A stretch of 63,331 bases of DNA, counting the filler, from Chrysochromulina tobinii (Eukaryota), in assembly GCA_001275005.1 (NCBI GenBank). It is 3 parts of 3 records of this genome, joined end to end, with 100 filler letters (N's around TTAATTAATTAA, not from the genome) between each part and the next. Parts side by side here need not be neighbours in the genome. Positions count along the whole stretch, not along the records: positions 1 to 28,129 come from JWZX01001410.1; positions 28,230 to 53,739 come from JWZX01001411.1; 1 more part is not named here. One strand, given 5' to 3'. Both the position numbers and the translations under genes were made by a program. The notes under the pieces were generated by a model that searched no databases, was not told the origin of the DNA, and worked only from the letters and a program-made list of their open reading frames with translations. Positions 2,700-49,018 of this stretch are shown here, piece after piece (within the stretch, counting starts at the first letter, position 1; every line of letters starts with the position of its first letter).

Positions 2700-3941
2700 A
2701 TGGCGCACGACCGTCTCGCGGAGCTCCGCCGAGGAAGAGAGTCGGAGAGCCCCGCAGGGAGAGGGGGCGGTGGCAAGGGCGGTGGCCATGATGACGTTGA
2801 GATGGGCGCTGGGTCATTTATGCAGAACTTCTTTGACGAGGCAGGGGATATCAAGAAGACGATGGCGTCGATCCGGTACAACATTCGGCAGATTGAGCAG
2901 TCGCACGGCGAGTGCCTGACCGCCGTATCCGCTGACCAGGGTAGGGAATCTACAGAGCGGCTCGAGGAGCTCATGCGCACCACCAACGGCATGGCGACGC
3001 AGGTGCGCAACCGGCTGAAGTCCATGGACGTCGAGAATAAGGAGTATGCAAGGAGCAACGTGGGCGCGTCCGAGGCACGCATCCGCTCGAACATGCATGG
3101 TACACTGACGCGAAAGTTTGTGGACCTGATGGCCGAGTATCAGGAGTTGCAGACCAAGTACAAGAACAAGTACCGCGAGCGCGTCGAACGCCAGTACAAG
3201 ATCGTGAAGCCTCATGCGAGCAAGGACGAGATCGATGCTGCCTTCGACAGTGGAGATTCGCAGGATAATGTGTTCACGCAGCAGATCTTGCAAGGGCCCG
3301 GGCACGCGGCGGCGCGCTCGGCGCTCGCCGACATCCAAGAGCGGCACAAGGACATCACGCGACTCGAGACCTCGATCCAAGAGCTCCACCAACTCTTCCT
3401 GGATATGTCTGTCCTCGTCGAGTCGCAGGTGCGAGGATCGCCGTGGATTGCCACGAATCGTCTTGGAGTGCCTTGGACTGCCTTGGACTGCCTTGGACTG
3501 CCTTGGACTGCCTTGGAGCGCCATTGATTGGATATGTCGCCCCTCGTCGAGTCGCAGGGCGAGCTGCTCGACCAGATCGAGTACACGGTGTCTCAGTCGG
3601 TCAACTTCACTGGAAAGGCGGTGGAGGAGCTCCGAACCGCGAATCAATACCAAAAGAGGGTGCGCAAGAAGATGTGCTGCATCATTTGTGTGATCCTCAT
3701 CGTCATCATCGCCATCATCGCGCCGCTCCTCGTGAGCCGCATGACAAGTGCGAGGCGCCTCCTCGAGCTCGAGTGGGACTAATTGCCTCCCTAATTGCCT
3801 CCCTAATTGTGGGACGCCTCCCTAATTGCCTCCCTAATTGTGGGACGCCTACCTAATTGCCTCCCTAATCATGGGACGCCTCGTTGAGCTCGAGTGGGAC
3901 TTATGGACTGATGGGGGCGAGCAGCGTCGCCACTAGGCTGA
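2700..3941 (+). CDS. Plasma-membrane-type syntaxin (Qa-SNARE); exons 2700-3428, 3558-3747, 3937-3941
   Basis: N-terminal DRLAEL motif and Habc helices. The SNARE motif ERHKDITRLETSIQELHQLFLDMSVLVESQ|GELLDQIE is restored by removing 3429-3557. C-terminal TM CCIICVILIVIIAIIAPLL. The last mini-exon (ATG ACA A|GC TGA) is less certain. Confidence 0.9.
3429..3557 (+). other. GT-AG intron (129 bp) with CCTTGGACTG array and a 29-bp copy of the upstream exon end
   Basis: cag|gtgcga ... gtcgcag|ggc. 3400-3428 matches 3529-3557 at 26/29. Confidence 0.9.
3748..3936 (+). other. Probable GT-AG intron (189 bp) with CTAATTGCCTCC array
   Basis: Donor gtgcgagg is identical to that of syntaxin intron 1. Acceptor cactag. 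3908-3930 duplicates 3938-3960. Confidence 0.6.
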
Positions 3942-4617
3942 TGGGGGCGAGCTGCGTCGCCGCGCACACGTGGGGCTCCAAAATGCGTGGCGCTCCAAGG
4001 TGCGAAATGCAGTGTGAAATGGGGCTCCAAAATGCGAGGCGCTTACGTTGTGCGCTGCGCTGCAAGTGCCCGCCGACACGCGAGCGCTGGCAGTTGGCAG
4101 CGAGCTGGAGCATGTTAAGTTCACTGACACTCCGAACGCGTGCCACGTGGGGGTCGAGTCCACATGGTCGAGTGACGAGGTTCGGAGAGGAATTGCGGGG
4201 GAAAGGCCCGGGTCGCCGGGATCTGCCTCTTCTCCTTCGTTGCATTCGACGCGCATCCCCCCGCCCTGATTGGGGCTCCGCCCCGGGACGTAGATTTTCG
4301 GGTGTCGCACGTGTCGCGCGGTTGATTTTCCGTGACGGTCGCTGAGCTGACCTGCCGGCTCTGAATAATTCGGAGCTGTTCACACACACTGTCGACACAG
4401 CGCCAGCGACGCAAGACCCAGACAGTCACCCGACCGGTTCTTCCGTTCACGGCGCCACCATGGCGCGACGCGGCTATAAGCACAGACTCCGCGACGACTA
4501 CCTCAAGGCACCCCTAATCTAAACCCCTGGAGGCCCACACATTTCTCGGGGGAACACCCGACGGGTATTAACAGCCATTTCACGGCTTGTTGATGGCGCC
4601 GCGGCTTCGGGTCGTCG

Positions 4618-6405
4618 ATGCTCGTCGCTGCTGTTTGCCTGCTCTCGGCCGAGATCCGCGGCGGCCGTGGTCTCGTGGTGCGACATCGCGGAGCACGCAT
4701 GCTGATCACTCCGGACAAACTTGAGGAGGCGCGCAACGCTGCACGAGACATGCATGCCGCGGCGGTCGCATACAGCGAGGAGACTTATCACCGGGGCAGC
4801 ACGTGGCAATGCTCGGCGAGTACCTCACTTTCACGCACCGACTGGGATTGCTACGGCTTTCCCCGCGCTGGAAGTGGCCTCGGTTACGATGCCACAGCAC
4901 CCGGGGGCTACGGAGAGGATGAGCTGGCGCGAGTGAGCAGGAGACCCATCCTCTCCGTCGTCGAATGCTCCGCCATCATCGCGGAGGCCGAGCGCGTGGC
5001 TGCCTGGGAGGAGAGCGGACGCATCGCTCATTATGCACGGCGGGCAGGCTGCCTCACCCCTCTGAGCGCTCTGCCCGAGTCCTTGAAGATGCTCACTCCG
5101 GTCCTCTCGTCGGTCTTGCTCCCCAGCATCCAGACCGCCTTGCCTCGCGGATGCGGCTCCGCAGCATTGCGCGTCAGCGACGCGCGGCTCGTGAAGTACA
5201 ATGCGACGGCGTCGCAGACGCAGCTGGGCTTGCATCGTGATGGGCCGCTCGTCACCGCCACGATTGCCCTCAACAGGCAAGATGAGTACGATGGGGGCGG
5301 CACCCGGATCGAGGCCTTGCAAGGCAGGATGTTGCTCGGGCAGGATGACGTCGGCATTGGAGGCGGCGCAGCTGGCGGAGGCGGCACAGCCGGCGGAGCG
5401 AGCGTGCTGCGTGTTCCGCAAGGCCACGCCGTGCTCCATCCAGGCGCCGTACGCCACGGAGGAGAGCCGATCACCCGCGGTCTGAGGTACTTCCTCGTCG
5501 CCCCTGGGATGCCTATGAGCGCCGTCCCGAGCACCATCGATCCGCGCCGCGTGCATCCCTCGTCAGGTACGTGCTCGTCTTCTTCATCTTCGATAAGAAC
5601 ACCGTGGACTACGACCGCTTCAGCTTGCTCAAAGCCACCGGCCTCCTCGCCCAGGCGCGCCACTGATGATTGCCACTAAGTGCCCCCGATGGCCTCTGAT
5701 GACCTCTCTGATGACCTCTCTGATGGCCTCTCTGATGGCCTCTGATGACCTCCGATGACCTCCGATGGCCTCCAGGCGCGTCGAATCTCCTCTACTCGGG
5801 CCGAGATCGGAGCTCGGGCCGAGATCGGAGCTCGGGCCGAGATCGGAGCTCGGGTCGAGATCGGGATCCTGCAGGCTGCGGTCGACGCCTATCGTGTCGC
5901 CATCGCTCTCGGTGCCGCGACGGAGGCGGCGCCAAATGGACTCGGGCAGGCTCTGCTCGAGCTTGCCCGATTGACCGGAGATACGTCCCTTTTGCAGAGC
6001 TCCGCGGACGAGCTCGCTGCTGCAGTGGCTCTCGCGCCCACGGACTCGCACTCGCTCTCGACTCTCAGCGCGGTGCATCTTCAGATGAAGCGGCCCGAGC
6101 AGGCACTACTCGCGGCGGCGGCGGCGGCGCTCGCAGACCCTCGGAACACTGCAGCCCACAACAATCACGGCTGGCTGCTCTCGGAGCTCGGGCGCCACGA
6201 CGAGGCGATACGCGCGTACATAGTCGGGCTGAGGCTCGACCCGCGAGATGCCGAGCTGCTGTGCAACCTGGCCACCTCGACGGCAGAGCTCGGCCAGCTA
6301 CAGAGTGCGGTGACCATCTTCGAAGCTGCCATCAAGGCGGATCCCAACCACAAGCGTGCGAGGGCAAACCTTGACGCGGTGCGCTCCTTCTTACCCAACC
6401 CTTGA
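4618..6405 (+). CDS. 2OG-Fe(II) oxygenase (prolyl-4-hydroxylase-like) fused to TPRs; exons 4618-5486, 5567-5654, 5776-6405
   Basis: LGLHRD...TIALN...YDGGGT...H.GAVRHGG.PITRGLR|YVLVFF (HxD...H...R motif completed by splicing). TPR helices AHNNHGWLLSELGRHDEAIRAY. Hydrophobic N-terminus. Confidence 0.85.
5487..5566 (+). other. GT-AG intron (80 bp) ending in the shared acceptor-like motif
   Basis: Junctions aggtacttcctcgtc / aggtacgtgctcgtc; 3' end gtgcatccctcgtcag. Confidence 0.85.
5655..5775 (+). other. GC-AG intron (121 bp) with TGATG(A/G)CCTC array
   Basis: ccaggcgcg at both junctions. Removal joins ...GLLAQ|ARRISS in frame with the TPR ORF. Confidence 0.8.
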
Positions 6406-6675: not shown

Positions 6676-9600
6676 TCAAGACTGCGGTCCAAGGATGCCG
6701 TCAAAGCGCTGATAGGCGATCAGGTATTCAGGATAGACTTGAGCATTCTGGAAGACGATGAACTCGCGGTATCGATAGGGCCCTCCACCGGCGTGGTTCT
6801 CAGCAACTAGCGTGTGGTGATTGACTGGCGGATCGACCCCGCCGACCGGCGCAAGCTCTCGCCATGACGGCTTAGGGGGGCTGCCCACCATCGGGAAGAT
6901 GCGCTCACTCGTGTCCGGGCTCTTCATGTTCTTATCGTGTGCCGTCAGCGTGCGGACCGTGCAGCCTGTAGCCACGCGGCAGGCCAGCAGGTAGAAGACC
7001 CGCCCAGGGTGGTCCGTGCCCTCAGGATACAAGCGCTGATGTAGCGCTTGAGTCCCAGCACTCCCCCGGGTGGCCGCCGAGGCGGGATCGTTTCGCTGCC
7101 ATGGGCGTATGTCGATGGTCGCGTAGTGGTCGCACTTGCCCGCGTCCTCGGCAAAGTACAGACCGTCGCCGAAGGCCGTGCCCGCATTCGTCCCCGAAAA
7201 GTGCTCATTCAGGCCGCTCGAGAGGATCGAAAGGAGGTTCTCGGGCGCCGTTGCGTGCAGCAGAATCTCCTCGCCTGCTAGCGTGTCAAGCTGTCCTGGC
7301 AGACGAGAGGCTGCATCGTGTAGCCGGCACTTGACATCGTGCACTGGCTTGCCTGCGTGCAGCACACGCTGCAAGCCCTCCGCCACCAAATTTCGGGCGC
7401 CTGCATACTTGACGAAGAGCGATTGGTGTTCGATGCGCCATGCCGCCGCCAGGCGCAGCCGGTCATAGCTTGGGGTTTGATGCTTGTAGTCTCGACCCTT
7501 GCCGAGCTCGGTGCCGTCTGTCTCGAGCAACGCACTCAGAGCGTTCCAAGCCTCGGAGTGCTTGGAGGGCTCGAGAGCCAACAGGGCAACCCCTTCGGCC
7601 GAGGCGGGTGCTGTGCTGTGCTGCCAGTAGTCGGGCAGTTTCAAGGACGCCTGCAGCTTGTGCAGCTGAGCGCGGTCGGCCGAGCTCTCCTTTTGTGCTG
7701 CGGCGAGGCTCGCGGCGTGCGCCCTCCGAGCGCGCTCCGCCTCCAGCACGACGAGCTCCGCAAGCGCCTGCTGCACCTGTATCGCCACCTCCGATGCCGA
7801 GGGTCGCTGCTCGGGCCGCTCAACCATCATGAGCCTCAGCAGCTTGGTCACGAGTTCCTGGTCCTCTAAGTCGGGCGGGGGGGGGCTACTGAGAACCCAT
7901 TCGAAGCTCTTGCCTAGGCTGTACACATCTGACTTGCTCGTGAGCTCGCTGACGGTGCCTTGGACCACCTCTGGAGCAAAGAACCCAAAGGTGCCGCCGC
8001 CAAACCCTTTGGTGGGTCCACCACCACCACCACCACCTCCTCCGCCGGCGGCGCTCGTACATTCGGCCGTGCTGATGACGAAGGAGCGCGAGCGGCGCGT
8101 CGTGGCCGGCACGCTCACGTCGAAGTCGGCGAGACGCGGGCGCATGCCCTCGTCGAAGAGAATGTTATCCGGCTTGATGTCCGAGTGGATGACGCCACGA
8201 GCGTGCAGGTTGGCCACCGCCTCGCTCAGCGCGAGCAGCAGCTCCAACATGAAGCGCGCTGTGAGGTGCGCCCTCTCGCGCACGGTGCTCAGAGTGCCGT
8301 TGGGGTAGTAGGGCATCTGGAGGTAGAAGCTGTCGTCCGACTCGAAGAGCGCTTCGAGCTCGACCACGGCCGGATGCTGGCACTTGAGCAGAAGCGCCGC
8401 CTCTTTGTAGCACACCTTGAGAGCCTCCGCATCGACATCGTACTTCTTGAGTGCGACGGCGCGACCGTCAAGGAGAGCGATCCACACCGGATGGCGCGAG
8501 AACGTCTGCAGCTTGCGCAACTCCGTGTACTGGTCAAGCTGGCGCCCCATCTTGTACAGGGGGAGGAGCTCTACCGGTATGCCGTCCGGCACACGGCGAC
8601 GTAGCTCGGGGAAGGCGTTCAGCTTCTTGAACAGTGTGGCGTGCAGCTGGCTCAGCTCTCCCTCGGCCGCGCGCACTGCGCCCTTGGCCACTTTGACATC
8701 CGCTGCGCGTTGCTCAACGGCATCATTGCCCGACTGCAGCTTGGCCCTCTTCAGCTTCGTGCCCTCTTCTTCGAGGTCGAGCTTGGCCAGCTCCACCTTG
8801 TTGCGCGCCCTCATCAGCTCCTCTTCGAATGCGTCCACACGCGTCTCGAGCAACTCCGAGAGCTTCGCGTGCTCGTGGCTGAGCCCCTTGCAGCGCTCGA
8901 GAATGCTCTGAAGCGACGCAGCAGCCTGGTGACGGCGCTCGGCAACGGCCGACCCAGCTTGCAGCAGTAGCTTGAGCGGGAACGCCGACAGTTGAGTCTG
9001 CCAGAAGCAGATCTCGGCGTCGACCTTGGCGTTGAGAACGCGCAGCCGCTCGCTGACGAGATTGGGCTCAACGGACATGTCCGATGTAAACATGCTCCCA
9101 TGTAGACATGTCATGTTGAGCGCAGCGAGGTCGGTGCCTGCCTGCTGTTCGGGCTCCACTTCGAAGGACTTCTCGTACTGATCAATGGCGCTCAAAGCCG
9201 AAAGCACACAAGAACCATCCGTGCCAGCCGTTGAAGATCGTGGGCCCGCATGGAGGTTGGACAGCGTGGCAGGGCCAAACACGTAGATGTCGACAATCAG
9301 CTTCAGGAGTTGGTCTGACTTGAGCAGGTGCTCCGTCGCTCGGGCGTCCGTGTGCTTCACCAGGTAGTCGCGCACGACGGCCTTGCACTGCGAAAGCGCC
9401 TCACCGCCGCTCAGCGTCTCGCGACCGCCGCCGCTGCTGCCCGCTCCCTTGGCCGCCCCACCCTCGCGCAGCGGCCCGTTTTGGTTCTGCAGGCCGTGTA
9501 CAATGTCCATGCACTGCCAGAGCATGTGGCTGCTGCTCACGCCCTTGTCCAGCCAATCCTGCCGCAGCGCCTGCACGGCCGTCGCTTTCGCCTGCGAGAG

Positions 9601-10866
9601 GATCTTGGCGCTCTCGGCAGCCTCGCGCGCTGCGGTCTCAGCGTGCGTGCGCAGCCCTTCCAGAGATGCAGCTTGGAAACTCGTGAGCAGCTGCTGAGCC
9701 TCGGTGGCAACGGACTCCATGTACGCTCGCCGTGCCGCATCCCGCTCGGCGATGGCCGCCATGAGACGTGCCTCATCCACTGGCGATGCGACAGCCTGCT
9801 GAGACACAAGCTCCTGCTTCTCCTGCAGCAGCTTGGCAGCTTGAGAATCACGAGAGATCTGGGGCCGGGATGTCTCCGTTGCCGTCTCGCCGTGTACCTC
9901 GGACAGCACCTGCGGGCACTCCTTGAGAATCTTGGCAATGCCCTGTATCTCATCCATGTTGGCTGCACGACGCTGTGGATTCGTGTGCAGCACGTCCCAC
10001 GCCCGAGCCGTGTGGGGAGGGATGTCTCCGTTGCCGTATCCATGTGTAATGGCCGCTCGGATGGATGCCACAAGTGGTCCAAAGGTGGCGACGAACGGCG
10101 GCGGGATGCCTCGGTGGCGACGAGCGCGTGCGTCGCTCAGCTTACGAAGAATCTCGGAGAGAGGCAGCTCAGGAGGAGCCTTGGTGCACTTGAGCGAAGG
10201 CTCCTCGGTCCACCTGCCTTCTGAGTACACCTTGTAAACCCAGTCGCTACCGACCTCTTCGCCGTACGGATATAGCTGAATGCACTTCGAGTTAATGTAG
10301 CCTAGGTGAGTGCCCAGATCTGCCTTGCTTTGGAACACCCACTTGCATACTGCACTCTTGCACAGGTAGCGATCGAGCCCCGCAGCATGGCGCCACACGG
10401 GGGCCCCATTTACCTCACGCCCTTCTTCGAGGGTGTAGTTTCCCAAGCACTCTGCTTGATGTGGCTCTAACGCGTGACTATCTCCCGTCAAGAAGATGAC
10501 TGGCGCGAACGGGGGAAGTTCTGCCTTGGTGCACTTGAGCGAAGGCAAATCGATCCACTTCCACTTGCCTTCTTTGTACAACCTGAAAACCCAGCCGCTA
10601 CCGACCTCTTCGCCGTACGGATGTAGCTGAATGCACTTCGATTGAAACCAGTTTCGGTCAGTGCCCAGTTCTGCCTTGCTTTGGAACACCCAATTGCCTA
10701 CTGCACTCTTGCACAGGTAGCGATTGAGCCCCGCAGCATGGCGCCACACGGGGGCCCCATTTACCTGACGCCCTTCTTCGAGGGTGTAGTAGCCCAAAAG
10801 TCCGGCCCATTTTGCAACCGCGTGATTGTCTGCCGTCAAGACGAGCACTGAAGGCAACGTTGACAT
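6676..10866 (-). CDS. Multidomain protein: two N-terminal ~115-aa repeats, coiled coil, Ser/Thr kinase, C-terminal PARP-type ADP-ribosyltransferase domain
   Basis: Kinase motifs VALKKY, KEAALL, HSDIKPDNIL, LADFD, FFAPE, KSDVYSLG. PARP motifs LLHAT, FGDGLYFAE...DHY, YREFIVF, YPEYLIAY. Intronless ORF. Confidence 0.85.
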   Translation of the reverse strand: MSTLPSVLVLTADNHAVAKWAGLLGYYTLEEGRQVNGAPVWRHAAGLNRYLCKSAVGNWVFQSKAELGTDRNWFQSKCIQLHPYGEEVGSGWVFRLYKEGKWKWIDLPSLKCTKAELPPFAPVIFLTGDSHALEPHQAECLGNYTLEEGREVNGAPVWRHAAGLDRYLCKSAVCKWVFQSKADLGTHLGYINSKCIQLYPYGEEVGSDWVYKVYSEGRWTEEPSLKCTKAPPELPLSEILRKLSDARARRHRGIPPPFVATFGPLVASIRAAITHGYGNGDIPPHTARAWDVLHTNPQRRAANMDEIQGIAKILKECPQVLSEVHGETATETSRPQISRDSQAAKLLQEKQELVSQQAVASPVDEARLMAAIAERDAARRAYMESVATEAQQLLTSFQAASLEGLRTHAETAAREAAESAKILSQAKATAVQALRQDWLDKGVSSSHMLWQCMDIVHGLQNQNGPLREGGAAKGAGSSGGGRETLSGGEALSQCKAVVRDYLVKHTDARATEHLLKSDQLLKLIVDIYVFGPATLSNLHAGPRSSTAGTDGSCVLSALSAIDQYEKSFEVEPEQQAGTDLAALNMTCLHGSMFTSDMSVEPNLVSERLRVLNAKVDAEICFWQTQLSAFPLKLLLQAGSAVAERRHQAAASLQSILERCKGLSHEHAKLSELLETRVDAFEEELMRARNKVELAKLDLEEEGTKLKRAKLQSGNDAVEQRAADVKVAKGAVRAAEGELSQLHATLFKKLNAFPELRRRVPDGIPVELLPLYKMGRQLDQYTELRKLQTFSRHPVWIALLDGRAVALKKYDVDAEALKVCYKEAALLLKCQHPAVVELEALFESDDSFYLQMPYYPNGTLSTVRERAHLTARFMLELLLALSEAVANLHARGVIHSDIKPDNILFDEGMRPRLADFDVSVPATTRRSRSFVISTAECTSAAGGGGGGGGGGPTKGFGGGTFGFFAPEVVQGTVSELTSKSDVYSLGKSFEWVLSSPPPPDLEDQELVTKLLRLMMVERPEQRPSASEVAIQVQQALAELVVLEAERARRAHAASLAAAQKESSADRAQLHKLQASLKLPDYWQHSTAPASAEGVALLALEPSKHSEAWNALSALLETDGTELGKGRDYKHQTPSYDRLRLAAAWRIEHQSLFVKYAGARNLVAEGLQRVLHAGKPVHDVKCRLHDAASRLPGQLDTLAGEEILLHATAPENLLSILSSGLNEHFSGTNAGTAFGDGLYFAEDAGKCDHYATIDIRPWQRNDPASAATRGSAGTQALHQRLYPEGTDHPGRVFYLLACRVATGCTVRTLTAHDKNMKSPDTSERIFPMVGSPPKPSWRELAPVGGVDPPVNHHTLVAENHAGGGPYRYREFIVFQNAQVYPEYLIAYQRFDGILGPQS
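10179..10790 (-). repeat. Intragenic tandem duplication (~345-bp period) encoding the N-terminal repeat domain
   Basis: ccttggtgcacttgagcgaagg at 10179 and 10524. Peptides YTLEEGRQVNGAPVWRHAAGLNRYLCKSAV and YTLEEGREVNGAPVWRHAAGLDRYLCKSAV. Confidence 0.9.
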
Positions 10867-12937: not shown

Positions 12938-13013
12938 ACCGGCTCCCCCGGTGTCTTTTTACCGGCTCCCCCGGTGTCTTTTTACCGGCTCCCCCGGTGT
13001 CTTTTTACCAGTA
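12938..13013 (+). repeat. 3 x 23-bp tandem ACCGGCTCCCCCGGTGTCTTTTT; member of a dispersed motif family
   Basis: Exact units at 12938, 12961 and 12984. Related copies at ~35129, 57114, 57283 (reverse), 57335 and 61605. Confidence 0.9.
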
Positions 13014-13026
13014 GTAGGATTCCTAT

Positions 13027-18698: not shown

Positions 18699-21600
18699 TC
18701 ACATGCGTTGCTGATCCTCGGCGGCGCGCCGGTGCATGCGGAGCATCTGCTCTTGTTGGCTGAGCACCGCCTTGAGGTTGACAAGCTGCACCGTGAGCGA
18801 CGAAGCCTCCGCCGCCTTGGCCTCGAGCTGCGCACTGAGCATAGCCTCGCGATCGCCCATTCCGCCACCAGCAGCGCCATCGCGGGAGCGGCCCTGCTCG
18901 GCGAGGCCTCCTCCTCCGCCGCCGCCGCCGGAGCCCCCGCCAAACAGACTCTCGAAAAAGCCAGCGCCGCCAGCGCCGCCAGAAGCAGCGCCGCCAGCGC
19001 TCGCGCCAGCGCCGCCCGAGCGAGCCTGCTCGTCGCGCATCTGGAGCTCGCGGTGGAGCTCCGCCAGCTGCTGCTGCAACGCCGCCACCTGCTTGCGCGA
19101 CATGACCACGTCATTGTCGCCGACGCCGCGCGCCCGGCGCAGCGCCTCGAGCTCGGCCAGCTCGGTTGCATGGACATGGGCGAGCTCCTTACGGATCGCA
19201 TCCCGCGTCTTCTCCTCGAAGGCCTCTCGCTCGAGCCGCTCGCGCTGCCGTTGGTTCTGCGTCTCGACGACGCTGAGCTGGCTCGCGCGAGATTCCTTGA
19301 AGTGCGCAAGCTCGGCCTGTCGGATGCGATCTTGTGCATCGAGCTCCGTCCTGCGAAGCGATGCCTCGAGCGACGCGATGCGCGCCTGTGCCTCGAGACG
19401 CGCCTCCGAGCGCACCTGACGAGGGAGGCAATTATGGGTCATCAGTGATCATCAGAGGTCATCAGAGGTCATCAGAGCTCGAGACGCGCCTCCGAGCGCA
19501 CCATGTCGACACGGCGCGCCTCCGCCTCGCGACCCGCCAGCGCGAGTCGGAGCTGAGCTGCGAGCGCATCACGCTCCTCCATGGCCCGAAGCACGCTCCC
19601 CGCGTTCCCGTGCAGCCGGCTCGCGAGCACATGCGCGCGCCATGCGTGGAAGAGCTGTCGAGTCCAGCCGCGTGAACGGTGGACCTCAAAGGCGGTGAGC
19701 AGCTTGCTCAGTCGAGCCGCCGCGCCCTTCTCGGCCCGCTCTTCTTGCGCGTGCAGCATCTCATCGCGCTCGCGTGTCAGGGCAGACGTCCTCGCAAGCT
19801 CATGCCACGCATGCAGGATCCGTTGCACGGAGGCCCCGATCATCACCTTGAGGACCCGGCTCGCCATCTTCTCCTTATGGGCTGAGAAGAGCTCCTTCTG
19901 GAGCCGAGTCTCGGCGGCGCGCTCGTCCGCCGCCGAACGGCGCCTCTCGAGCTCACGAGCTCGAATCTCCCCTCGAACGAGATGGCTCCATGCGCTGAAG
20001 ACGGCGCGTTGACCGATGCAGCCGGCCACGCCGTGTAGGAGCCTCTTCGCCGCTTTCAGAGTCCTTCTCTCGAGCACCAGCTCCACCCTCTCTCGCTCCC
20101 GCTCATCCCTCTCTTGCTGGGTGAGGGTGGCCCAGGCACGAAAGGTGGCACGCAGGCCGATGCCGAAGGCGACGAGGACGCCCAGCTTGCGAGCCAGCGT
20201 CTCCTTTTGAACCATCGCCTTCTGCTCGGCCGCCAGTTTCTGGTGCTCTTGCGCTGCGGCCGCAGCACGCGCCGCACGCGCCGCCGCCGTCTCGTTCTCG
20301 AGCTGCGAGCGGAGGGCCGCATTCTCTTGCCGGTAGGCCTCGAGGGCGGTGGAGCGGCTAAGGGCCTCGAGGCGCATTGCGCCAATGGACTCGCCTGATG
20401 AGGGAGGCAATCAGAGGTCATCAGAGGTCATCAGAGGTCATCAGAAGTGATCAGCCACTGCTGATCGAGGCGCATCAATGGACTCGCCTGTAATGGCCTT
20501 CTGCTGCTCGATTTGGCGAGCGAGCTGCTTGGACTGATCCTCGGCGGTACGGCGCACCTGATGAGGCAGTAATCAGGCAATAATGAGGCAGTAATGAGGC
20601 AGGCCATCAAGGATCCTCGGCGGAACGGCGCACCTGATGAGGCAGGCCATCAAGGAGCTCATTACAGGCCCTCAGCGGGCAATCACGCTCATCCATGGCG
20701 CGGCCACGAGCTGTCATTGCTCATCAACGCACCTGGTCCGCCGCGGCGACAAGCTGTGCCGCACGCTCCCTCGATGCGAGCAGCCGCTGCGTGCGAGCGT
20801 AGCGTGCCCACGCGCTGAGGACGATGCGCACGAGACGCTCGCGCGCGCCGTGCAAGAGCTTCTCGGCGGTGACCGTACGCATCTGGAGCCAGCGCTGCAG
20901 CTGGTTCTCGTGTGCCTCCTCGGCGCTCAAGGCAGCCTCCTCCCTGTCGAGTTTGCGGAGCTCCTCCTGCTCGCTGAGCTCCGAAGTGGCCTCGGTGAGC
21001 TGCGCCTGGCACCTTGCAAGAGCGGCCTCGGCCTCATCCAAATTGCACTGCGCATCGCTCAGGTCAGCCTGCAGCTTCGCGACCTCGGCTTTGGCAGCCT
21101 CGAGCTCCCTCTCATGCGCGCGCCTCTCATGCGCACGATCGAGCTCCGATCTCTCGAGCTCGCCCAATCTCCGCTGCATCCTCGCGAGCTGCTCGGGCGA
21201 GGTGGCCTGCTGGTGCGCCGAGAGCATCTGCAGCTGCTGCTGCAGGCTGAGCACCTCCGCCTGCTGCTGCTGCACCTGCTGCATGAGCGCAGCCCCTCGC
21301 GCGTGGGCGGCCTGCGTCGCGACACTCGCCTCGGCGGCCTCGCGACGCGCCTCGGCTAGCTGTGCCTTCCACGCCTCCTCGGCTGCGAGACGGCGCCGCT
21401 CGCGCTCCTGCACGTCGCCATACCGGTGCCCCTTTTCATCGGCGAGCCTTTGCTCGAAGCTCCTCTGCTGCTTCCCCTTTTCGTCCTCGAGCTCGGCCAC
21501 TCGCCGCTGAAGCGCGCCTAGCTCGGCGGCGTGAGTCTGGCTCGCCTCGTCCACCTGCGCCGCCGCGAGCGAGCGCGCCACCTTCACCTCGGCCTCGAGC

Positions 21601-24600
21601 TCGAGGAGGCGCTTCTTGTAGCCCTCTCTCTCTTGGGCAGCCTCGCCGCTGTTCGCCTCGCGTTGCCTTTTGTGGAAGGCGCGCACCATCGCCTTCTCCT
21701 CGTCGAGAGCTTCGCGCACCTGTGGAGGAATGCAATCGGGGACGCCATCGGAGTCGCACTCGATCGCACTCTGAGGACTGATGAGGGACGCCATCAAGTC
21801 GGCACTCAACCAGGGCAATCACGCTCATCAGGGGGCTGATGAGGGAGGCCATCGAGGGAGGATGAGGGAGGCCATGAAGTCGGCACGAAACCAGGGCAAT
21901 CACGCTCATCAGCCGCACACACACACACACACACACACCTCGCGAAGGTGGTTCATCTTCTCAGCGAGGGCGGCAAGATCCGTGCGCTCATCTCCAGCGC
22001 TCGTGAGCGCCTCGAGCACGGCCATCAGCTTCACAATGCGCCGCTCGTGCGTCTCCATCTCGCGAGCTCGCTGCGCCTCCACCTCGCCCACCTTCTTCTC
22101 GCCAGTGCCTCGCAGACCGCGTATCTCGTCCTCGAGCTCCCGCAGACGCTTCGCCTGCGACGCCTCACGCTCGCGCACCTGCTGCAGCTCCATCTGCTGC
22201 AGCTTGTGCTGTGAGGCCGTCTTAAAGTTGCGTACCTCGTCCTGCAGCAGGTTCACCTTACTGCGGCTCGCCTCGCGCTCGCCAAGCTGATCGAGCTCCC
22301 ATCGCAATCTCTCAATCTCCGCGGCCTTATCCCGCTCGCCATCCTGAGCTCGCTTGAGCTCGGACTTGTAGATGCGGCCCTGCTGCTTGCGGCCCTCCTC
22401 GGCGCGCTCCGCGGCCCGGGCCACATGACGGAGCTTCTCCTTGAGCACTTGCACCTGAGGAGGGAGGCACTTGGGAGCAAATCAGGGAGCAATCAGGGAG
22501 CAATCATGGAGCAACCAGGCGGATTCCGAGCGCAATCCAGTGCAATCCCTCCCTTCCAATCCAGTGCAATCGAGTGCAATCCCTTCCAATCCAGTGCAAT
22601 CGAGTGCAATCCAGTGCCATCCAGTGCCATCCAGTGCCATCCAATGCCACTACCTGCCCCTCGAGTGAACCGGCGCCCTCGCCTAGGTCGCCCAACACGC
22701 CGCCCCAGTCAAAGGCACCTCCGTCGTCGAGGAGCAGCTGGGCATTGCCGTTAGGCGAGCCGCCAGAGCCTGAAGAGGCACCGAACCCAAAGCCGCCTGA
22801 GCATGTCGCCGAGCCGACGCCGCCTCCCACGCCGCCGCCGCCGCTGGCGCCGCCGCCGGCACCGCCGCCTAGGGCGGATGAGAAGGCGGCGCGCGACACG
22901 CTGCTCACGTGTGCCGAGGCCGGTGGGCGCGGCAGGCCCGTCCTCGGATCGACAGCCGGCGGCGGCGGCAGCGAGGGCCAGAACTCGGGAGATTGCGGCA
23001 GATGGCCGGACGACTGGCCGATGCCATATAAGGGAGGCGATCTCGGCAACTCAATCGGTGGGGGGGGTGAAGTTCCCTTGAGCTGCATCCCAAGCTCCCG
23101 TGCCCTCCCTCGCGAGGGAGGCGCCGTCCCAAGCGCCCAGGCTCGCGAACGCAGGCGCCGTACCAGGCACTTGCTCGTCCGCCCACGCCCGTGCCGCTCC
23201 GTACGCGCTGTGCGGCTCGGCGATTGCATCTCGGCTGAGCTCGGCGCTGAGGGCTCGGCCGAGCGGCGCCGTGGCCGAACCGTTGAACCGGCCGGCCGCC
23301 GCGCCGCCCTGAGCGCCCGAGACAGCGCCCGAGCCGCCGCCGAAGGACGCACGTGGCGGCCGGTGCTTCTGGCGCGCGCCGTACTGAGCGTCGCCGCCCC
23401 CCTTCGTTGGGGTCGCGTCCGCCCCGAGCTTGGGCGCCGTGCTGGGCGCCCCTGGTTTGGGCGGCGTCGCGTCGCGCTTCTTGTCGACGGAGCTGGAACG
23501 TGCCTCGTGTGCGAGGTTGCGCGTGGCGACGTTCACCACCGCGCGCGCGCGCGACGCAAAGTGTAGCGTCGAGAGGGACTCGTGCAGCGACGAGATCGAG
23601 GGCGAGATGGTGCACAGCATGACGCAGAGCGCGGATCCACCCAAACTCTCCTTGAGGAGGTGGGTCAATTTCGAGTTGCGATAGGGCACGTGCGCGGCTG
23701 AGTCCTTACCGGTAGCTGACGAGGCGCCGCCCTGAGCGCCGCCCGCCGCTCCCGGCGGTGGCGGCGGCTGCTGCGGCGGCTGCTGCTGCTGCTGCTCGGC
23801 GAGCGTCTTGATGACCAGTCCGAGGGTCGTGAGGCTCTGGTTGATCGCGATCGCCTCTTGCTGACGCGCGGGCGCGTCGCCCGCGTCCTTGTACCGCTCC
23901 GAGCCAGCGAGATCGACGAGGTGCGCGCGCGAGGTGACTGTCTTGCCGCCTCCCGCGCGCGAGCGGGCGGGCAGCGTCAGCGCAAGCGTGAGCAGCGCGT
24001 GCGAGCGCGACGAGTGCGCATTCATCTTGGTCGCGGCCGTGATGCGCGCACCTTCCGCCTTGGCGAGCAGTTGCAGGAGCTCCTTCGCGGATTGCACGCG
24101 CGGCTCGCTGAGACCTTGGACGTGCACGCCCTTGGCCTCCGAGCGGCGCAGGCGAAGCTCCGCCTTCGAGCTCGGATCGAGCAGGTCGAAGAAGGTCTCG
24201 TTGTGCAGCTGGCAGTAGCTCACATGCACCTTGGCTCCCGGGATCGCGCCCACGCGCTCGAAGAGCTCGGCGCCAAAGCGCGGGATGATGCCCGCCGCGC
24301 GCGCGCGCTCGGCGGGCGAGGCTGTCTCGTCGCTGCTGCCCATCATGCTGAACGTCTTGCCGCTGCCCGTCTGGCCGTAGGCCAGGATCGTGCAGTTGAA
24401 GCCGTCGAAGAGCGCCGCCATCGGGCTGGCGACGAGCTCCGTGTACACCTCGTGCTGCGCCGCCGATTCGGCAAAGCACGCGTCGAACGTGAACGTCGCC
24501 TCCTCCTCACCCGAGGTCACCGTCACTGTCGTGTTCGACGGCATAGCGATGCACGGCTCGCCATCGGCCGGCGTGGACGGCCGGCATCGCACGGCGACCC

Positions 24601-37960: not shown

Positions 37961-39421
37961 TGCGGCGGCTCGGAGGTGCTTCCTTGTCGGCTCTCATGTA
38001 GTTTCCGTGGCGGCGGCAGCGGTGGCTTGGGGAAGCTCTCTTGTAGCTTTCGTGGCGGCGGCGGCGGTGGCTTGGAGAAGCTGGCCGCGTGCAGTTTTCG
38101 TGGCGGTGGCGGCGGTGGCTTGGGGAAGCTGGTCGCGTGGCGGCTGTGGTCATAGTGGCGCGAGTAGTTGACCGGTAGGAGCGGCGCGGCAAGGTCGGGC
38201 GCCATGCCGGGCGCATTTTCGAGCTCGAAGCGCGGCGACGTGGCGACGGTGGCGACGGCGGTGAGCACGAGGCCGAGAACAATGAGGGACGCGCCCGCGA
38301 GGCATCCACTCCGAGGGGCTTCCCCTAGCACGGCGTACGCCATCAGGCTCGTGAGAAGGGGCTGCACGATGCCGTACAGCGTGAGCAGCGTCGCAGGCAG
38401 CCGCTGGTTGGCATAGGTGAAGAGGCAGTAGGCGCCCACTCCGACGAAACTCACCTGATGAGGGACGCAATCAGACGCAATCAGTCATCAGGCAGTAGGC
38501 GCCCACTCCGACGAAACTCACTGTGAACGCGAGCGCCGCGAGCTCCTCGCGGCCGAGTGTAAAACGACCCAGCGCCATCGCGGGCGCCTGCTTGCACGCC
38601 ACGTAGTACGCCGCGCACGTGCCCGCCAAACTCACAGACGCGAGCGCGTATGCAGCAGCGAGCACCTCAAGCTCCCCATGACGGCGTAACAGGGCCTTCT
38701 GCGTGAGCACGAAGGCGACGCTGCCGCACGACGAGAGGAGCAGGAAAGCGCAGCCCACCAGGTACTGCATCTCGCCCTCTGGGTGAGTGCCGTCCTGAGC
38801 GCCCGTCGGGTTGTAGATGAGGACGGCGCAGCCGGCGCAGGCGCAGAGCACACCGGCGACCTTGGTGTACGACGGGCAGAGGGCGGAGCATCGTGCACCG
38901 CAGAGCGGCAGCGGCTCCCAGCCGAGCACTCCTGTGGTTACGAGCGTGAGGATCGGGATGAGCAGGTTGGACAGGCTCGCCGTGGTGGCGTCCACCTTGC
39001 GCACTCCGAGCAAGAAGGTCAGCTGCATGGCGCCCATCGCCACGCCGCAGCAAACAAGCAGAAAGACCTCGCGGCGCGTGTATGAGGACGATGGCTCACG
39101 TGAGACCCAGCGCTGAACGGCAGTCGCCATGCACAGAACAAGCGCGCAGCCCAGCTCGCGACAGGTCGCAAATATGATCGGATCGCTTCCGGTGCCCATC
39201 AAGCGCTTGCTGAGCACAGTCCACGAGCTCCACACAAGCTGCGCGCCGATCACCGCCGCGTGCGCTGCGGGCGCGGTGCAGAAAAGGCGCGTGCCGTTCG
39301 CCACCATGAAGACTCCCGACCCCGCGAGCGAGGCGTTGTCGCCCGCCGCAGGGAAGAATGACGAAAAAGGAATAGGATTTGTTTTGTCCCTAATGCGGAC
39401 AAATGCTTGAACTTCTTCCAA
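37858..39421 (-). CDS. EamA/DMT (WAT1-like) transporter with a Pro-rich tail; exons 39421-38522, 38454-37858
   Basis: DPIIFATCRELG, LSNLLIPILT, TKVAGV, YGIVQPLLTSLMAYAVLGE. Start uncertain. Confidence 0.85.
37906..37968 (+). repeat. (GGC)n microsatellite encoding poly-Pro in the DMT tail
   Basis: Run of ggc triplets. Adjacent ~45-48-bp repeats encode SFPKPPPPPPRKL. Confidence 0.9.
38455..38521 (-). other. GT-AG intron (67 bp) = perfect 32-bp exon duplication + 35-bp repeat/acceptor cassette
   Basis: 38423-38454 is identical to 38490-38521. Cassette: gatgactgattgcgtctgattgcgtccctcatcag. Confidence 0.92.
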
Positions 39422-41354: not shown

Positions 41355-42760
41355 ATGCTGTCTCGCCTCGCATGTCGAACCGCGATGCCTTCATCCTCAC
41401 GTGCAGCTGCTGCTGGTGCCAGCTGCACGCAACGCTCGAAAAGCACGCTGCCCAAGAGTGGCACGTGGATTGACAGGGAGCTAGGCTACAATACGTGCGT
41501 GCCGACCGACCGCACACGCACACAAGCGGCAACGTCCGTTTGCCAATCTATCACGCGATCCTTTTGCTCTGAGCCGCGGCCGTGTGCGGTTCGCGTGCAT
41601 TCCGCAGGAAGCTCGTGCACGCCGCGATCGATCCGGATCCCATTTCAGGCGCCATCCTCACTCCCATCTACCAGTCGACCACGTACATTCAGGAGTCGAT
41701 CGAGCAGTACCTCGAGAAGGGCTACTCGTACTCGCGCACGAACAACCCGACGGTGTCGACGCTCGAGCGTAAGATTGCGATGCTCGAGGGCGGCTACGGC
41801 TCAGCGTGCTTTGGGACGGGCATGGCGGCCACCATCGCCGTCGTCAGCGGCACGATGAAGGCGGGCGATCACTGCGTCATCACAAACTGCTCGTATGGCG
41901 GCACGAACCGCGTGTGCCGAACGATGTTCACGGACATGGGGATGCAGTTCGACTTTGTCGACTTCACCGACGTTGCCACCATCGCCAAATACATCAAGCC
42001 GAACACGAAGCTCATCTTCTCCGAATCGCCTGCAAATCCGACCCTCACGTTGACCGACATCCCCGCCGTCTCGGCGCTTGCGAAGAAGCACGGCATCCCT
42101 CATGTGGTCGACTCGACGTTCGCAACGCCGATCATCCAGCGGCCAATCGAGCTCGGCGCCGACCTTGTCATCCAGTCGACGACCAAGTTCTATGACGGCC
42201 ACAACATGACCGTGGGGGGCGCCGTGATCTGCGCCACCAAGGAGCTCTACGAGCGCATCAAGCACATGCAGAATGTGCATGGCAACATCATGTCGCCACA
42301 GAACGCGTTCTACACGCTGCAGACGACGAAGACGCTCGCGCTGCGCGTCAAGCAGCAGAGCGCCACAGCGATGACGATTGCCAAGTTTCTCGAGAAGCAC
42401 CCGGCCGTTGAGACGGTGCGCTATCCAGGCCTCGACTCGCACCCACAGAAGGAGCTCGCCGACCGTCAGCACCTGGACGGTGTGCACGGCTCGATGCTCT
42501 GGTTTGAAGTCAAGGGCGGCACTGAGAGCGGCCGTGCGATGATGAACTCCATCCAGCGCCCGTGGTCGCTCTGCGAGAACCTCGGAGCTGCCGAATCCAT
42601 CTGCACAGCGCCCGCGGTCATGACGCACGCGAACATGCTCAAGGAGGACCGTCTGAAGGTGGGCATCACCGACGGGTTCGTGCGCATCTCGTGTGGCCTC
42701 GAGGACGCCGACGACCTCATCGCCTCACTCAAGCAGTCCCTCGATGCTCTACGCCGGTAG
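41355..42760 (+). CDS. Cys/Met metabolism PLP enzyme (cystathionine gamma-lyase/synthase family) with a mitochondrial-type leader; intron 41465-41607
   Basis: PIYQSTTY, YSRTNNPT, SESPANP, VVDSTFATP, QSTTKFYDGH (PLP Lys), VRISCGLED. Splicing gives ...SGT|KLVHAA. Confidence 0.92.
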
Positions 42761-46187: not shown

Positions 46188-46466
46188 GGTACCCCCGCCG
46201 GCGCCGGCTGCAGTGTGTGATCGGGGCGGTATGCACGGGCGGCGGTGTCTGCTGCATGGCGGTGTCTGCGGCATGGCAGTGACGGCGCAAGCCAGCGCAT
46301 GCAGCGGGTCGATCTCGGGCGATCTCTCGGATGTGATGTCTCGCATGGACTCAAACGTAGTAATGTGTGCATTGTGCGCAGAGTGGCGTGCGTCACTGCA
46401 TCGTCCAAGGAACACTTCACCATTTCCTTTTTTGGACGGCGGCCGGACTGTGAAATCGCCTTTTTG

Positions 46467-49018
46467 ATGGCGTCGCCGGACGTGGCGCAGCTCATCGCGA
46501 GCGCCGCGCTCGCCCTCCGCCGCACAGACGCCGCGGATGTGCGCACGCGTGTTGCGCTTGCGCTCCGGCTAGGTGCTGCCTTTGAGCACGGCGGGCAAGA
46601 AATTCGTGCCGCGCGCTCGTTTGGGCTCGCTGTGAAATTGGGAGGTGGCACCGAGGCGTACATGGCCCTCGGCATGGTTCTGGGTCGTTTGCAGCGCGCT
46701 GAGCAAGCACGTGAGGCCTTTCTCGCTGCACGGGCCCTCAGCCCTGGCCACGCTCCGACGCACCGCGCGCTTGCACTCGCCGAGTCCTTCCTCGGTCGGC
46801 CTGAGCACGCGGCCGAGGCGTTGGGCCGAGCGGTGCGCCTGATGCCCACGTACGAGGACGCGCACTTCGAGCTCGGCCTCGTGCACCAACGGCTGGAACG
46901 GCCGCACGCCGCGCTCGCGGCGTACGACGCGCTGCTCGCGCACAATGGCCGCCATGCGGGCGCGCTCACCAACAGAGGCACCGTGCTCAAGGAGCTTTCG
47001 CGGGCGCACGAGGCGCACGCAGCCTACCTTCGGGCGCTGCTGGTGGCGCCAACCATGGGCGAGATCTACAACAATCTGGCGGTGCTCGCCACAGGCGAGC
47101 TCCGCTTACCCGAGCTCGCGCTTCGCCACATCCAAGACGGTCGACGCCTCTCGCCTTCGATTGATTGGGATACGCCCCAGGGGCTCGCCCTCTCTCAACT
47201 TCGACGGTACTCGGAGGCAGCGGCCGCGCTCGCGGCGGCGGCGCGTGCGGCGCCGTCGAGCGAGGGCGCCGCGTGCCAGCTCGCGATTGCGCGCATGCGG
47301 ATCGCGGACTGGAGAGACGTCGAAGGGCTCATGCACAGAGCGAGAGCCGCCATCGAGCGTGGTGCGTGAGCTCATCGAGCTCTGATGACCTCTGATTAGC
47401 TCTGATTAGCTCTGATTACCTCAGCCATCGAGCGTGGCGCGTGAGCTCACGAGTGTGATGGCCTCCGATGGCCTCCGATGGCTACTGATGGCCTCCGATG
47501 GCTACTGATGGCCTACGATGGCCTCCATCATCAGGTGCGTGTGCTCGTGATTGGGATCCATTGTATGGGCTCGCCTCACCTCTCCCCGCACGCTCGAGCC
47601 GACTGTATGCCGAGGCACGCGCGCAGCGTGACCTTACGACGGCACGCCTCGTGAGGGTTGCCCAATACGGCGCGCACAGCGAGGGCACGAGCGCACGCCG
47701 ACAGTTCGTCAGTTTAGTCAACGGCTCCGGCAGTTTAGTCAACGGCTCCGGCAGGCGTGCGGGTGTGCACGTGCCAACACGGCGCTCCTTACGGGTCGGC
47801 TTGCTGTCTGCGGATTTGCGGCTACACGTGATGGCCTTCCTCACGCTCGGGCTCTTCGAAGAGCTCTGCAGGCGGGCGGAGGCTCCCCACGCCACCGGCC
47901 GGGAGATCGGGGGGGATCGGGGCAGGTGGCGCTCGGCACGGCGCGGCGCTCTTCACGACTCTGGCGGGGCCCCATTACGCGTGAATGCCGAGCGCGGCGG
48001 CGCAGGCTCGGGTGTAGGCTCGGTTGTCGGCGCGGGCGGCAGCTCGGGTCTGGAGGTTTGGACCCTCTCCCTGAGCGCCGACGACGATTCCGGCTGGCAG
48101 CCCCGTTTTGTGCACGCCGCCGCGGCCGGTCGCCGTTTCGTCAACCTCTCCGAGATCATCGATCTCGCTGGTACCTCGGCCGCCGCGGATCGCATCGCAT
48201 CTCTCGGGCTGGATGTGCTCATCGACCTCAACGGGTACACCACCGATGAGCGCGCGGAGCTCTTGGCAATGGGCCTCGCGCCGATCGTGATGCATGCTGT
48301 GGGATACCCAGGCTCGATGGGAGCCTCCTTTGTCCCCTATATGCTCCTCGACCGTTACGCCGCGCCCCCGCTCGCCACGGCGCGTGCCCGCGAAGCGCTG
48401 AGCGAACGCCTTGTGCTACAGCCGCACTGTTATCAGGTCAACGACCACGGGCGCCACCCGCTGCCGCCATCGCACGCGCAGCAGCAGCAGCCGCAGCAGC
48501 CGCAGCAACAGCAGCCGCAGCAGCCGCAGCAGCAGCCGCCGCCGCAGCAGCCGCCCTCGTCGCAACGGCCGATCCTCATCAACTTCAACCAAGCGTATAA
48601 GCTCTCGCGCGTGGCTGGAGAGCTCTGGTGCGCGGCGCTGCTGCGCTCGGGGCCCGACTCCCGCCTGTGGCTGCTGCGTCAGCCGGACGATGCCGAGCCC
48701 TTTCTGCGTGCCGAGCTCGCCGCGTGTGGCGTGCACGAGCGGCGGCGCGTCATGTTTGCGCCCATGGTGGCGGACATCCCGGGGCACCTGGCGCGGGTGG
48801 CGACGGCAAGCCTGGGCGTCGACACGCCCGAGTACAACACGCACACGACCGGCTCGGACGCCCTGTGGGGCGGCGTGCCCATGGTCTCCGCGCCCGGCGA
48901 GCCGATGGCGGCCCGCGTCGCCTCCTCCCTCCTCAAGGCGACCGCGATGTCCAGCGGCGTCGTGGGCGGACTCAAGGAGTATGTAGACGCGGTGGCGGCG
49001 CTGGTCGCCGCGTCGTGA
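46467..49018 (+). CDS. OGT/SPINDLY-like TPR + GT41 glycosyltransferase; exons 46467-47361, 47535-49018
   Basis: TPRs; LRVGLLSADLRLHVM, LDVLIDLNGYT, GYPGSMGA, NFNQAYKL, DTPEYNTHTTGSDALWGGVPMV, MAARVASSLL. Confidence 0.88.
47362..47534 (+). other. GT-AG intron (173 bp) with two decamer arrays and an internal copy of the donor junction
   Basis: 47424-47449 matches 47349-47374 at 25/26. TCTGATTAGC and GCCTCCGATG arrays. Ends cgatggcctccatcatcag. Confidence 0.88.

What the first reader, a model, noticed from the sequence alone, without database searches (positions are those of the whole stretch)
3400..47534. Candidate intron-generating system: introns built from a long exon duplication, a sense-strand decamer array and a shared acceptor cassette
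Seen: 12 introns in 6 unrelated genes (3429-3557, 3748-3936, 5487-5566, 5655-5775, 19416-19501, 20395-20487, 20558-20732, 21720-21938, 22455-22653, 26661-26953, 38455-38521, 47362-47534) share one recipe. Ten carry a ~9-34 bp near-perfect copy of the adjacent exon or junction, most carry a ~10-bp tandem array, and many end in the same ~19-nt acceptor. Removing each restores a conserved motif or the reading frame. Established: described introners (e.g. Micromonas, Aureococcus) are near-identical short elements, some with TIRs and short fixed-length TSDs. Inference: here the duplications are long and variable, there are no TIRs, and the body is a reiterated unit. That fits target-primed or reiterative synthesis at staggered breaks (RT-, telomerase-like or repair-polymerase activity) creating spliceable inserts. 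High duplication identity implies recent gain. I cannot confirm from here that this is undescribed.
Basis: partly seen in the sequence, partly recalled or inferred. Interest (0 to 1): 0.92.

Follow-up and report, generated by a model that had tools for sequence, protein, structure and literature searches.

The report
Self-copying intron ends in lake alga
In the freshwater alga Chrysochromulina tobinii many introns consist of a long copy of the neighbouring exon plus a short repeated splice-signal filler, and wild strains differ by whole added layers of this kind, which likely come from error-prone DNA repair that copies existing intron ends and so likely both creates new introns and rebuilds old ones.

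Summary
The pattern is real but narrower than stated. The organism is the haptophyte Chrysochromulina tobinii/parva. Eleven of the 12 segments behave as introns; 3748-3936 is not spliced. Five of 12 carry an in-register exon copy (15-32 nt) beyond the chance maximum and two more an internal copy. Ten of 11 introns hold a sense-strand 10-11-nt array, and 7 of 11 end in the shared acceptor. Four of six positions testable in other haptophytes are empty there (likely gains); two are occupied, including one with a perfect 25-nt copy, so perfect copies do not date the gain. No intronless allele was found in the clade. Strains do differ by whole 60-87-nt layers (exon copy plus filler) added at the ends of existing introns, with fillers matching the same intron. 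There are no TIRs, no fixed TSD length and no single repeat unit, so this is not a classical introner or a telomerase product. Best reading: template-switching repair that copies intron 3' ends between staggered duplications. It combines Daphnia-type break-repair gain with amphioxus 'mirage' duplications. The scan noted the same footprint once before on another piece of this genome.

The parts
3429..3557 (+). Syntaxin intron, phase 0: degenerate decamers, array (5.6 x 10 nt), then a 29-nt copy (26 matches) of the upstream exon end that supplies the acceptor
   Evidence: spliced length 317 aa equals KOO33844.1. Array number varies among clade alleles. Position also occupied in 4 other lineages.
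3765..3901 (+). Unspliced relative of the recipe: 16-nt direct repeat (3765, 3886) around acceptor-like 12/31-nt arrays at the syntaxin stop codon; not an intron
   Evidence: RNA coverage through it; protein ends ELEWD. The second copy reads on for 12 further codons, probably the older C-terminus (inference).
5487..5566 (+). Probable older member: 13/15 junction copy, decayed acceptor, no array
   Evidence: Frame restored only with 5655 also removed; retained in one X18 contig.
5655..5775 (+). GC-AG intron, 9-nt junction duplication, 10/12-nt array
   Evidence: frame evidence only.
19416..19501 (-). Kinesin intron: 24-nt perfect copy of the downstream exon start, array, acceptor cassette; position shared with a distant relative
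   Evidence: RNA contig edges.
20395..20487 (-). Kinesin GC-AG intron: exon-start copy (28 nt in L003/L004, shortened by a 5-nt deletion here), array, cassette; L006 carries an extra 72-nt layer at its 5' end
   Evidence: Spliced in 3 of 3 RNA runs; alleles; absent in relative P0278.
20558..20732 (-). Kinesin intron = 99-nt older intron (20634-20732) plus 76-nt layer (20558-20633: 22-nt exon-start copy and a re-copied, reiterated local acceptor)
   Evidence: Spliced as one unit in 3 of 3 RNA runs; L004 has only the 99-nt part; absent in P0278.
21720..21938 (-). Kinesin intron with internal acceptor cassettes; 134-136 nt in other strains; no exon copy
   Evidence: shares a 17-nt non-array string with 20558.
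22455..22653 (-). Kinesin intron, mostly 10/11-nt arrays and cassette; no exon copy; 165 nt in L006
26661..26953 (-). SLC35F5-like intron: inner single-layer intron (about 26661-26773, 9+14-nt junction duplication, AAG acceptor taken from the exon copy) plus three 60-nt layers at the 5' end
   Evidence: Position empty in 11 of 11 informative outside hits; layer absent in sister cluster and 3 clade alleles.
38455..38521 (-). EamA intron: 32-nt perfect copy of the downstream exon start plus 35-nt filler ending in the cassette; simplest member
   Evidence: empty in 2 of 2 outside clusters, present in 15 of 15 listed clade members; RNA contig edge at 38490.
47362..47534 (+). GT41/TPR intron, two layers: donor, array and upstream-exon copy, then exon-start copy, array and cassette
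   Evidence: frame 356 to 848 aa on removal.
41495..41607 (+). Control: ordinary GT-AG intron of a Cys/Met PLP enzyme without duplication, array or cassette
   Evidence: Joint in 4 of 4 RNA runs; features scored with coordinates one base off; Pfam.

Best explanation
These introns are likely built by error-prone, template-switching DNA repair or replication that duplicates 9-35 nt around a site and fills the gap with a copy of an existing intron 3' end (branch-point-like decamers plus pyrimidine tract plus CAG). SHOWN: the anatomy; splicing; many loci carry the same acceptor; layers of this anatomy are present or absent among strains at existing intron ends; in the two layers read at DNA level the filler matches the same intron; four positions are empty in other haptophytes. 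INFERRED: (1) staggered breaks or a stalled fork start synthesis, which jumps at 2-5-nt microhomologies between exon and array; (2) at an intronless exon site the filler comes from another intron, and only products whose copy starts with GT/GC in sense orientation are spliced and survive; (3) at an existing intron the same event adds a layer, and loss of the older part between the repeats leaves an old position with young-looking sequence; (4) arrays then grow and shrink by slippage. Each new intron is a new template, so the class would propagate without a discrete element. The enzyme (Pol theta-like end joining or fork switching) and the template (DNA or the gene's own RNA) are not determined.
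For: L006 has a 72-nt layer on intron 20395 (35-nt junction duplication plus 37-nt copy of the intron's own array) whose two junction 16-mers occur in neither the window nor L001-L005. The 76-87-nt layer of 20558 copies that intron's own unusual acceptor and is absent in L004. At 26661 the sister cluster (14 proteins) and 3 clade proteins show the inner intron only and 19 show the outer layer, so the layer is the later state. Internal junction copies at 20395, 20558 and 26661 match unspliced DNA junctions, not exon-exon junctions. Units differ between loci but form one family. A product that cannot be spliced survives at a dispensable stop codon (3765-3901). A further layered example lies in L018. 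Acceptor-end contigs run into many unlike sequences: 139 loose ends, agreement 0.43. Templated insertions with repeat motifs are the described signature of synthesis-dependent MMEJ (PMC7407515, passages).
Against: No intronless allele in the clade: 0 of 12 intron-by-strain comparisons in L003-L006, 0 of 37 SLC35F5 and 0 of 15 EamA listed clade proteins, and none among 23 syntaxin read-throughs (spliced-type syntaxin records cannot be told from transcripts). De novo gain WITH the long duplication is therefore inferred from distant outgroups only. Six exon-start-type cases end exactly at the AG, which RNA-templated insertion also predicts. The microhomologies were read by eye and not tested. L004's short allele could be an assembly collapse of a 26-34-nt repeat or a deletion. 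Only one window and six loci were available; no genome was held.
Confidence: 0.5

Rival explanations
1. Target-primed reverse transcription in trans: a LINE-type RT copies a short non-autonomous RNA, or excised intron RNA, from its 3' AG end into a staggered nick. This gives a long variable TSD, a fixed 3' end, 5' truncation and stutter at the branch point.
For: Exon-start-type introns (19416, 20395, 38455, inner 47362, the 20558 layer, L018) have a variable duplication on one side and end exactly at the shared CAG. Sense bias 66:1. The repeated unit holds a YTRAY branch-like motif 16-17 nt from the AG in 4 introns. Non-LTR introners make up 5% of classified families (PMC12130899 section 6). 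Variable TSD length in TPRT is own knowledge.
Against: Exon-end-type layers (3429, outer 26661, outer 47362, L006) stop inside the array, not at an AG, and copy local sequence. Bodies are only 17-77% identical pairwise (28 pairs). No RT or transposase family in 31 window ORFs (weak, one window). Selection for splicing alone can explain the AG end and the strand.
Confidence: 0.22
2. Two unrelated steps: introns were gained earlier by another route (for example a short-TSD introner) or are ancient. Long duplications and arrays are secondary 'mirage'-type junction duplications and slippage, with selection for branch point and acceptor giving the family look.
For: All polymorphic events seen are on existing introns. 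Positions 19416 and 3429 are occupied in distant relatives. 21720 and 22455 have arrays without duplication. Arrays vary from about 2 to 7 units at 3429. Chrysochromulina sp. introners with 4-bp TSDs and no TIRs exist (PMC9860276 passages).
Against: Single-layer introns at positions empty in outgroups (38455, inner 26661, 20395) would each need a layer plus exact loss of the older intron. An ordinary intron splices well without the cassette, so the cassette is not required. The unspliced insert at 3765-3901 has the same sense-oriented filler.
Confidence: 0.23
3. Telomerase-like reiterative synthesis from one RNA template.
For: Sense-strand tandem units of nearly fixed period.
Against: At least seven different dominant units among 11 introns; units resemble local flanks; copy number behaves as a slippage VNTR.
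Confidence: 0.04
4. Assembly artefact.
For: Short-read assemblies; L004's short allele could be a collapse.
Against: The same duplications, with independent point changes, occur in lake metagenome strains and dozens of protein records. DNA contigs of X6 span several introns (X6 may be the window's source).
Confidence: 0.01

Closest known systems
Intron gain by staggered double-strand-break repair in Daphnia pulex (Li et al. 2014, PMC4202315; abstract, passages, sections 19 and 25 read)
   Same: Direct repeat of an adjacent exon end; repeated rounds of insertion into young introns; parallel gains at one site are common (43 of 90).
   Different: Daphnia repeats are 4-12 bp and shared motifs are AT-rich; here copies are up to 32-35 nt and the filler is a GC-rich, sense-strand family with ready-made branch-like motif and acceptor.
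Amphioxus 'mirage' minisatellites (PMC3087553, passages read)
   Same: Tandem duplication across 5' or 3' intron-exon boundaries, polymorphic, spliced out, proposed as a route to new introns.
   Different: Mirages are plain head-to-tail copies; here each layer has a rearranged or reiterated filler, and single-layer introns stand at positions empty in relatives.
Intron gain by tandem genomic duplication (Rogers model; PMC3443670, passages read)
   Same: Splice sites are recruited from a duplicated exon segment (both sites at 26661 and 5655, the donor at 19416, 20395, 38455).
   Different: The intron is not just the duplicated exon: non-exonic filler makes up half or more, and AGGT is not required (38455 follows CA).
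Introners / ILEs (PMC9860276 passages; PMC12130899 passages and section 6; bioRxiv 10.1101/2020.10.14.339549 parts 1-2 of 4)
   Same: Many loci share a carried 3' splice site while the donor comes from the duplication, as in Symbiodinium and Polarella classes 4/5; one-strand orientation.
   Different: Those have 3-9-bp TSDs, fixed per class in Polarella, often TIRs, and closely similar bodies; here duplication length is 9-35 nt, there are no TIRs and bodies are 17-77% identical. The Chrysochromulina sp. family figured there has a 4-bp TSD and carries its 5' site.
10-11-bp tandem repeats in Emiliania huxleyi introns (Read et al. 2013; recalled only, paper not held)
   Same: As recalled: strand-biased 10-11-bp repeats enriched in haptophyte introns.
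   Different: I recall no link there to junction duplications or intron gain; unverified.

Membership tests
Introner (DNA-transposon type) | Near-identical copies across loci | tested here: not met
   Bodies 17-77% identical over 28 pairs; longest shared strings 22 nt between genes, 28 nt within one gene.
Introner (DNA-transposon type) | Short TSD of fixed length | tested here: not met
   In-register copies 5-32 nt; layers 22-35 nt.
Introner (DNA-transposon type) | Terminal inverted repeats | tested here: not met
   Longest inverted match 5-8 nt in 11 introns, mean 6.3 against 5.8 in controls.
Introner (any type) | Creates introns at positions empty in relatives | tested here: met
   4 of 6 testable positions empty outside the clade; 2 occupied.
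Introner (any type) | Precise presence/absence with an empty allele | tested here: inconclusive
   Met for layers, not found for whole introns; P0277 lacks 20395 but may be a transcript.
Non-LTR / TPRT product | Variable TSD, fixed 3' end, 5' truncation | tested here: inconclusive
   Fits six exon-start-type cases, not four exon-end-type layers.
Non-LTR / TPRT product | Autonomous RT partner with the same 3' end | not testable with these tools
   No genome held; none in 31 window ORFs.
Telomerase-like addition | One invariant repeat unit | tested here: not met
   Seven or more dominant units.
Break-repair intron gain (Daphnia type) | Exon-end direct repeat and later rounds of insertion | tested here: met
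Break-repair intron gain (Daphnia type) | Repeat 4-12 bp, AT-rich shared motifs | tested here: not met
   15-35 nt copies, GC-rich shared filler.
Break-repair intron gain (Daphnia type) | Dependence on end-joining enzymes | not testable with these tools
   Needs mutants or induced breaks.
Mirage minisatellite | Polymorphic tandem duplication across an intron-exon boundary, spliced out | tested here: met
   20558 spliced as one unit; 1 versus 3 units at 26661.
Mirage minisatellite | Unit is an unmodified copy of the boundary | tested here: not met
   Layers contain deleted or reiterated filler.

The most novel reading that the evidence does not exclude
Spliceosomal intron 3' ends are themselves the mobile unit: excised or nascent intron RNA is copied from its terminal AG into staggered breaks, the polymerase stutters around the branch point to give the decamer array, and the 9-35-nt duplication supplies the donor. 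This would be an element-free, self-propagating intron factory that also overwrites old introns in place, still segregating in lake populations of a culturable alga.
Probability: 0.2. Interest if true: 0.92.

Novelty: new variant of a known kind. Interest (0 to 1): 0.72.

Why it matters
Where new introns get their branch point and acceptor is the weak step in break-repair and tandem-duplication models of intron gain. Here the filler appears to be copied from existing intron ends, at many loci, with intermediate states segregating in wild strains, so the question becomes testable by population sequencing in a culturable alga. Similarity-based introner searches would miss the class because bodies are not near-identical. 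It also warns that a perfect 'target-site duplication' does not date an intron: old positions can be overwritten.

Tried and rejected
No whole genome was held, so genome-wide scoring and the search for an autonomous element could not be run. Cassette or array patterns: viral contigs 0, 0, 1, 1 hits (L018 a chimeric contig with a haptophyte-like end, L019 a lone array with no intron context); genome contigs 0 and 11 hits (11 is about the chance level, prokaryotic, dropped). The one metagenome scan gave 6 loci, two near-identical to the window and so not independent. The syntaxin tree (58 rows) labels spliced transcripts and intronless genes alike, so its change count (6; 124-129 of 500 shuffles as low) is no test; I used it only for topology. 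P0279 is unrelated and was dropped; P0223, P0230 and P0233 do not cover the SLC35F5 site and were dropped. Copying from spliced cDNA was rejected because internal copies match unspliced junctions. One search was an empty alignment. Ten full-text searches found no paper describing this anatomy in haptophytes; the library lacks most subscription journals, and I read no supplements, where introner family lists for Chrysochromulina might hold related families. A second kinesin intron candidate (about 23014-23170) and 60333-60419 were left unverified.
Full report
ORGANISM AND DATA. The window is GC-rich eukaryotic DNA. Its syntaxin exon is 100% identical to Chrysochromulina tobinii KOO33844.1 and a C. 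parva protein. No whole genome was held. I therefore used RNA and DNA contigs of public runs, six metagenome loci, and proteins predicted from metagenomes. A gene caller that reads into an intron leaves its start in the protein, which shows the intron state of a relative.

OBSERVATION. All 12 segments are GT/GC..AG. RNA joints skip 20395-20487 and 20558-20732 in 3 of 3 RNA runs and not in the DNA run (only 15 of 148 joints were listed). Contig edges fit splicing of 19416, 21720, 22455 and 38455. Removing the introns gives open frames to the natural stop: syntaxin 317 aa, SLC35F5-like 463, EamA 460, GT41/TPR 848, both TPR-gene introns 528, five kinesin introns 1179 from position 23010. The segment 3748-3936 is covered by RNA contigs at exon depth and the protein ends inside it, so it is not an intron. 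In-register exon copies beat all 132 controls in 5 of 12 cases, are internal in 2, marginal in 2 and absent in 3. Arrays lie in 10 of 11 introns, 66 motifs to 1 on the sense strand, and 7 of 11 end in the cassette against 0 of 7390 other AG sites. In DNA run X6 summed depth over 20416-21081 is about 29,900 against about 40 in unique bins, and 139 contigs leave the acceptor at 20394 into unlike sequences: a class at many loci, though not a copy number. An ordinary intron (41495-41607) has none of the features and is spliced in 4 of 4 runs, so the cassette is not the obligatory splice signal of this genome.

ARE THEY GAINS? At 26661, 11 of 11 informative outside hits (41-68% identity; 4 clusters on contigs of 4-15 kb, so probably genomic) read through the site. 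At 38455, 2 of 2 outside clusters do. One distant kinesin orthologue, P0278, reads through 20558 and 20395 but breaks at exactly the 19416 codon and resumes out of frame about 30 residues later. The syntaxin position is occupied in four other lineages (P0009/P0011, P0047, P0048, P0189) and empty in genomic records of the nearest relatives, such as P0150; parallel gain at CAG|G and repeated loss both remain open. So 4 of 6 testable positions look like lineage-specific gains and 2 of 6 are shared. 5487, 5655, 21720, 22455 and 47362 were not tested. Within the clade no intronless allele appeared. P0277 lacks 20395 but is chimeric and may be a transcript.

WHAT STRAINS SHOW. L003, L004 and L006 differ from the window by 0.6-1.1% outside these introns. 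(a) At 20558, L004 has a 99-nt intron; the window, L003 and L006 add 76-87 nt made of a 22-nt copy of the next exon and a re-copied, reiterated version of this intron's own acceptor. Collapse or deletion in L004 is possible. (b) At 20395, L006 alone adds 72 nt: donor, 37 nt of the intron's own array, then a 29-nt copy of the previous exon end; both new junctions are absent from the window and five other loci. (c) At 26661, the sister cluster (14 proteins, 90% identity) and 3 clade proteins have only the inner intron, 19 have the outer 60-nt layer, in 1 copy in L006 and 3 in the window. (d) Arrays and internal segments also vary without touching exons (21720, 22455, 3429). In L003 both acceptor copies of 20558 share one variant, so identity between copies is no clock.

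MECHANISM. The simplest process giving both exon-start and exon-end copies, variable lengths, locus-specific units and local fillers is synthesis with template switches at short microhomologies, as described for synthesis-dependent MMEJ and for nick-induced tandem duplications (PMC7407515, passages). At an empty site (38455, inner 26661, 20395) the filler would come from another intron end, and splicing filters the products. The insert at 3765-3901, with a 16-nt repeat and sense-oriented acceptor-like filler but no usable splice sites, looks like an unspliced product tolerated at a stop codon. A layer plus loss of the older part between repeats would explain 19416. These steps are inferred. 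Target-primed copying of intron RNA by an RT fits the exon-start type well (exact AG end, a branch-like motif in the repeated unit) and is the main novel rival. Secondary remodelling of introns gained otherwise is the main conservative rival.

COMPARISON. It fails the introner tests of identity, fixed short TSD and TIRs (PMC9860276; preprint) and the telomerase test of one unit. It works like Daphnia break-repair gain (4-12-bp repeats, repeated rounds) joined to amphioxus mirages (lead from earlier scan notes), but with longer copies and a shared, splice-competent filler. Strand-biased 10-11-bp intron repeats in Emiliania are recalled from Read et al. 2013, which I could not read. Ten searches found no description of this anatomy in haptophytes. 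An earlier scan note on another piece of this genome (e1-2577349) reports a 15-bp-flanked intron and over a hundred relatives, and reads them as a mobile family; I did not re-test its count.

VERDICT. Real, unusual and testable; a new variant of repair- or duplication-driven intron gain with ongoing overwriting of intron ends. Interest 0.72.

Noticed in passing
window 13332-15301 and 16230-18158: Two 670-aa ORFs without Pfam match form a 1.9-kb direct duplication at 92.5% identity.
   Followed up: no
window 12937-13009, 57110-57365, 61616-61656: A 21-23-nt motif occurs as tandem and inverted copies in three intergenic places; the first lies in a bin of high DNA depth. Possible small mobile element end.
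   Followed up: no
window 15690-15830 and 57155-57230; 34558-34870: Dispersed intergenic repeats with high depth in DNA or RNA contigs.
   Followed up: no
window 23014-23170 (- strand): A frame change in the kinesin gene needs one more intron; one candidate holds acceptor-like motifs related to those at 3765-3901.
   Followed up: partly
L018 1-345 (- strand): An AT-rich IMG/VR contig begins with a GC-rich haptophyte-like piece carrying a layered acceptor (14-nt exon copy plus filler); probably a chimera.
   Followed up: partly
P0278 C-terminus (orthologue of window 19416): The relative's intron read-through suggests its own short repeated motif and a 9-nt exon-like start, so a similar process may act in other haptophytes (protein level only).
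   Followed up: no
syntaxin orthologues P0038-P0189: Haptophyte syntaxins break at many different lineage-specific positions, and P0189 and P0187 differ at the 3429 site despite very short branches: high intron turnover across the group.
   Followed up: partly
window 6679-10866 (- strand): 1396-aa ORF joining a protein kinase and a PARP catalytic domain, with a 330-bp internal duplication near its N-terminus.
   Followed up: no
window 26661 and 38455 genes: The public annotation misses these introns: KOO33840.1 starts in exon 2, and the NCBI EamA record ends in the intron read-through.
   Followed up: no
window 60333-60419: Possible ordinary 87-nt in-frame intron in the UNC-93-like gene; unverified.
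   Followed up: partly
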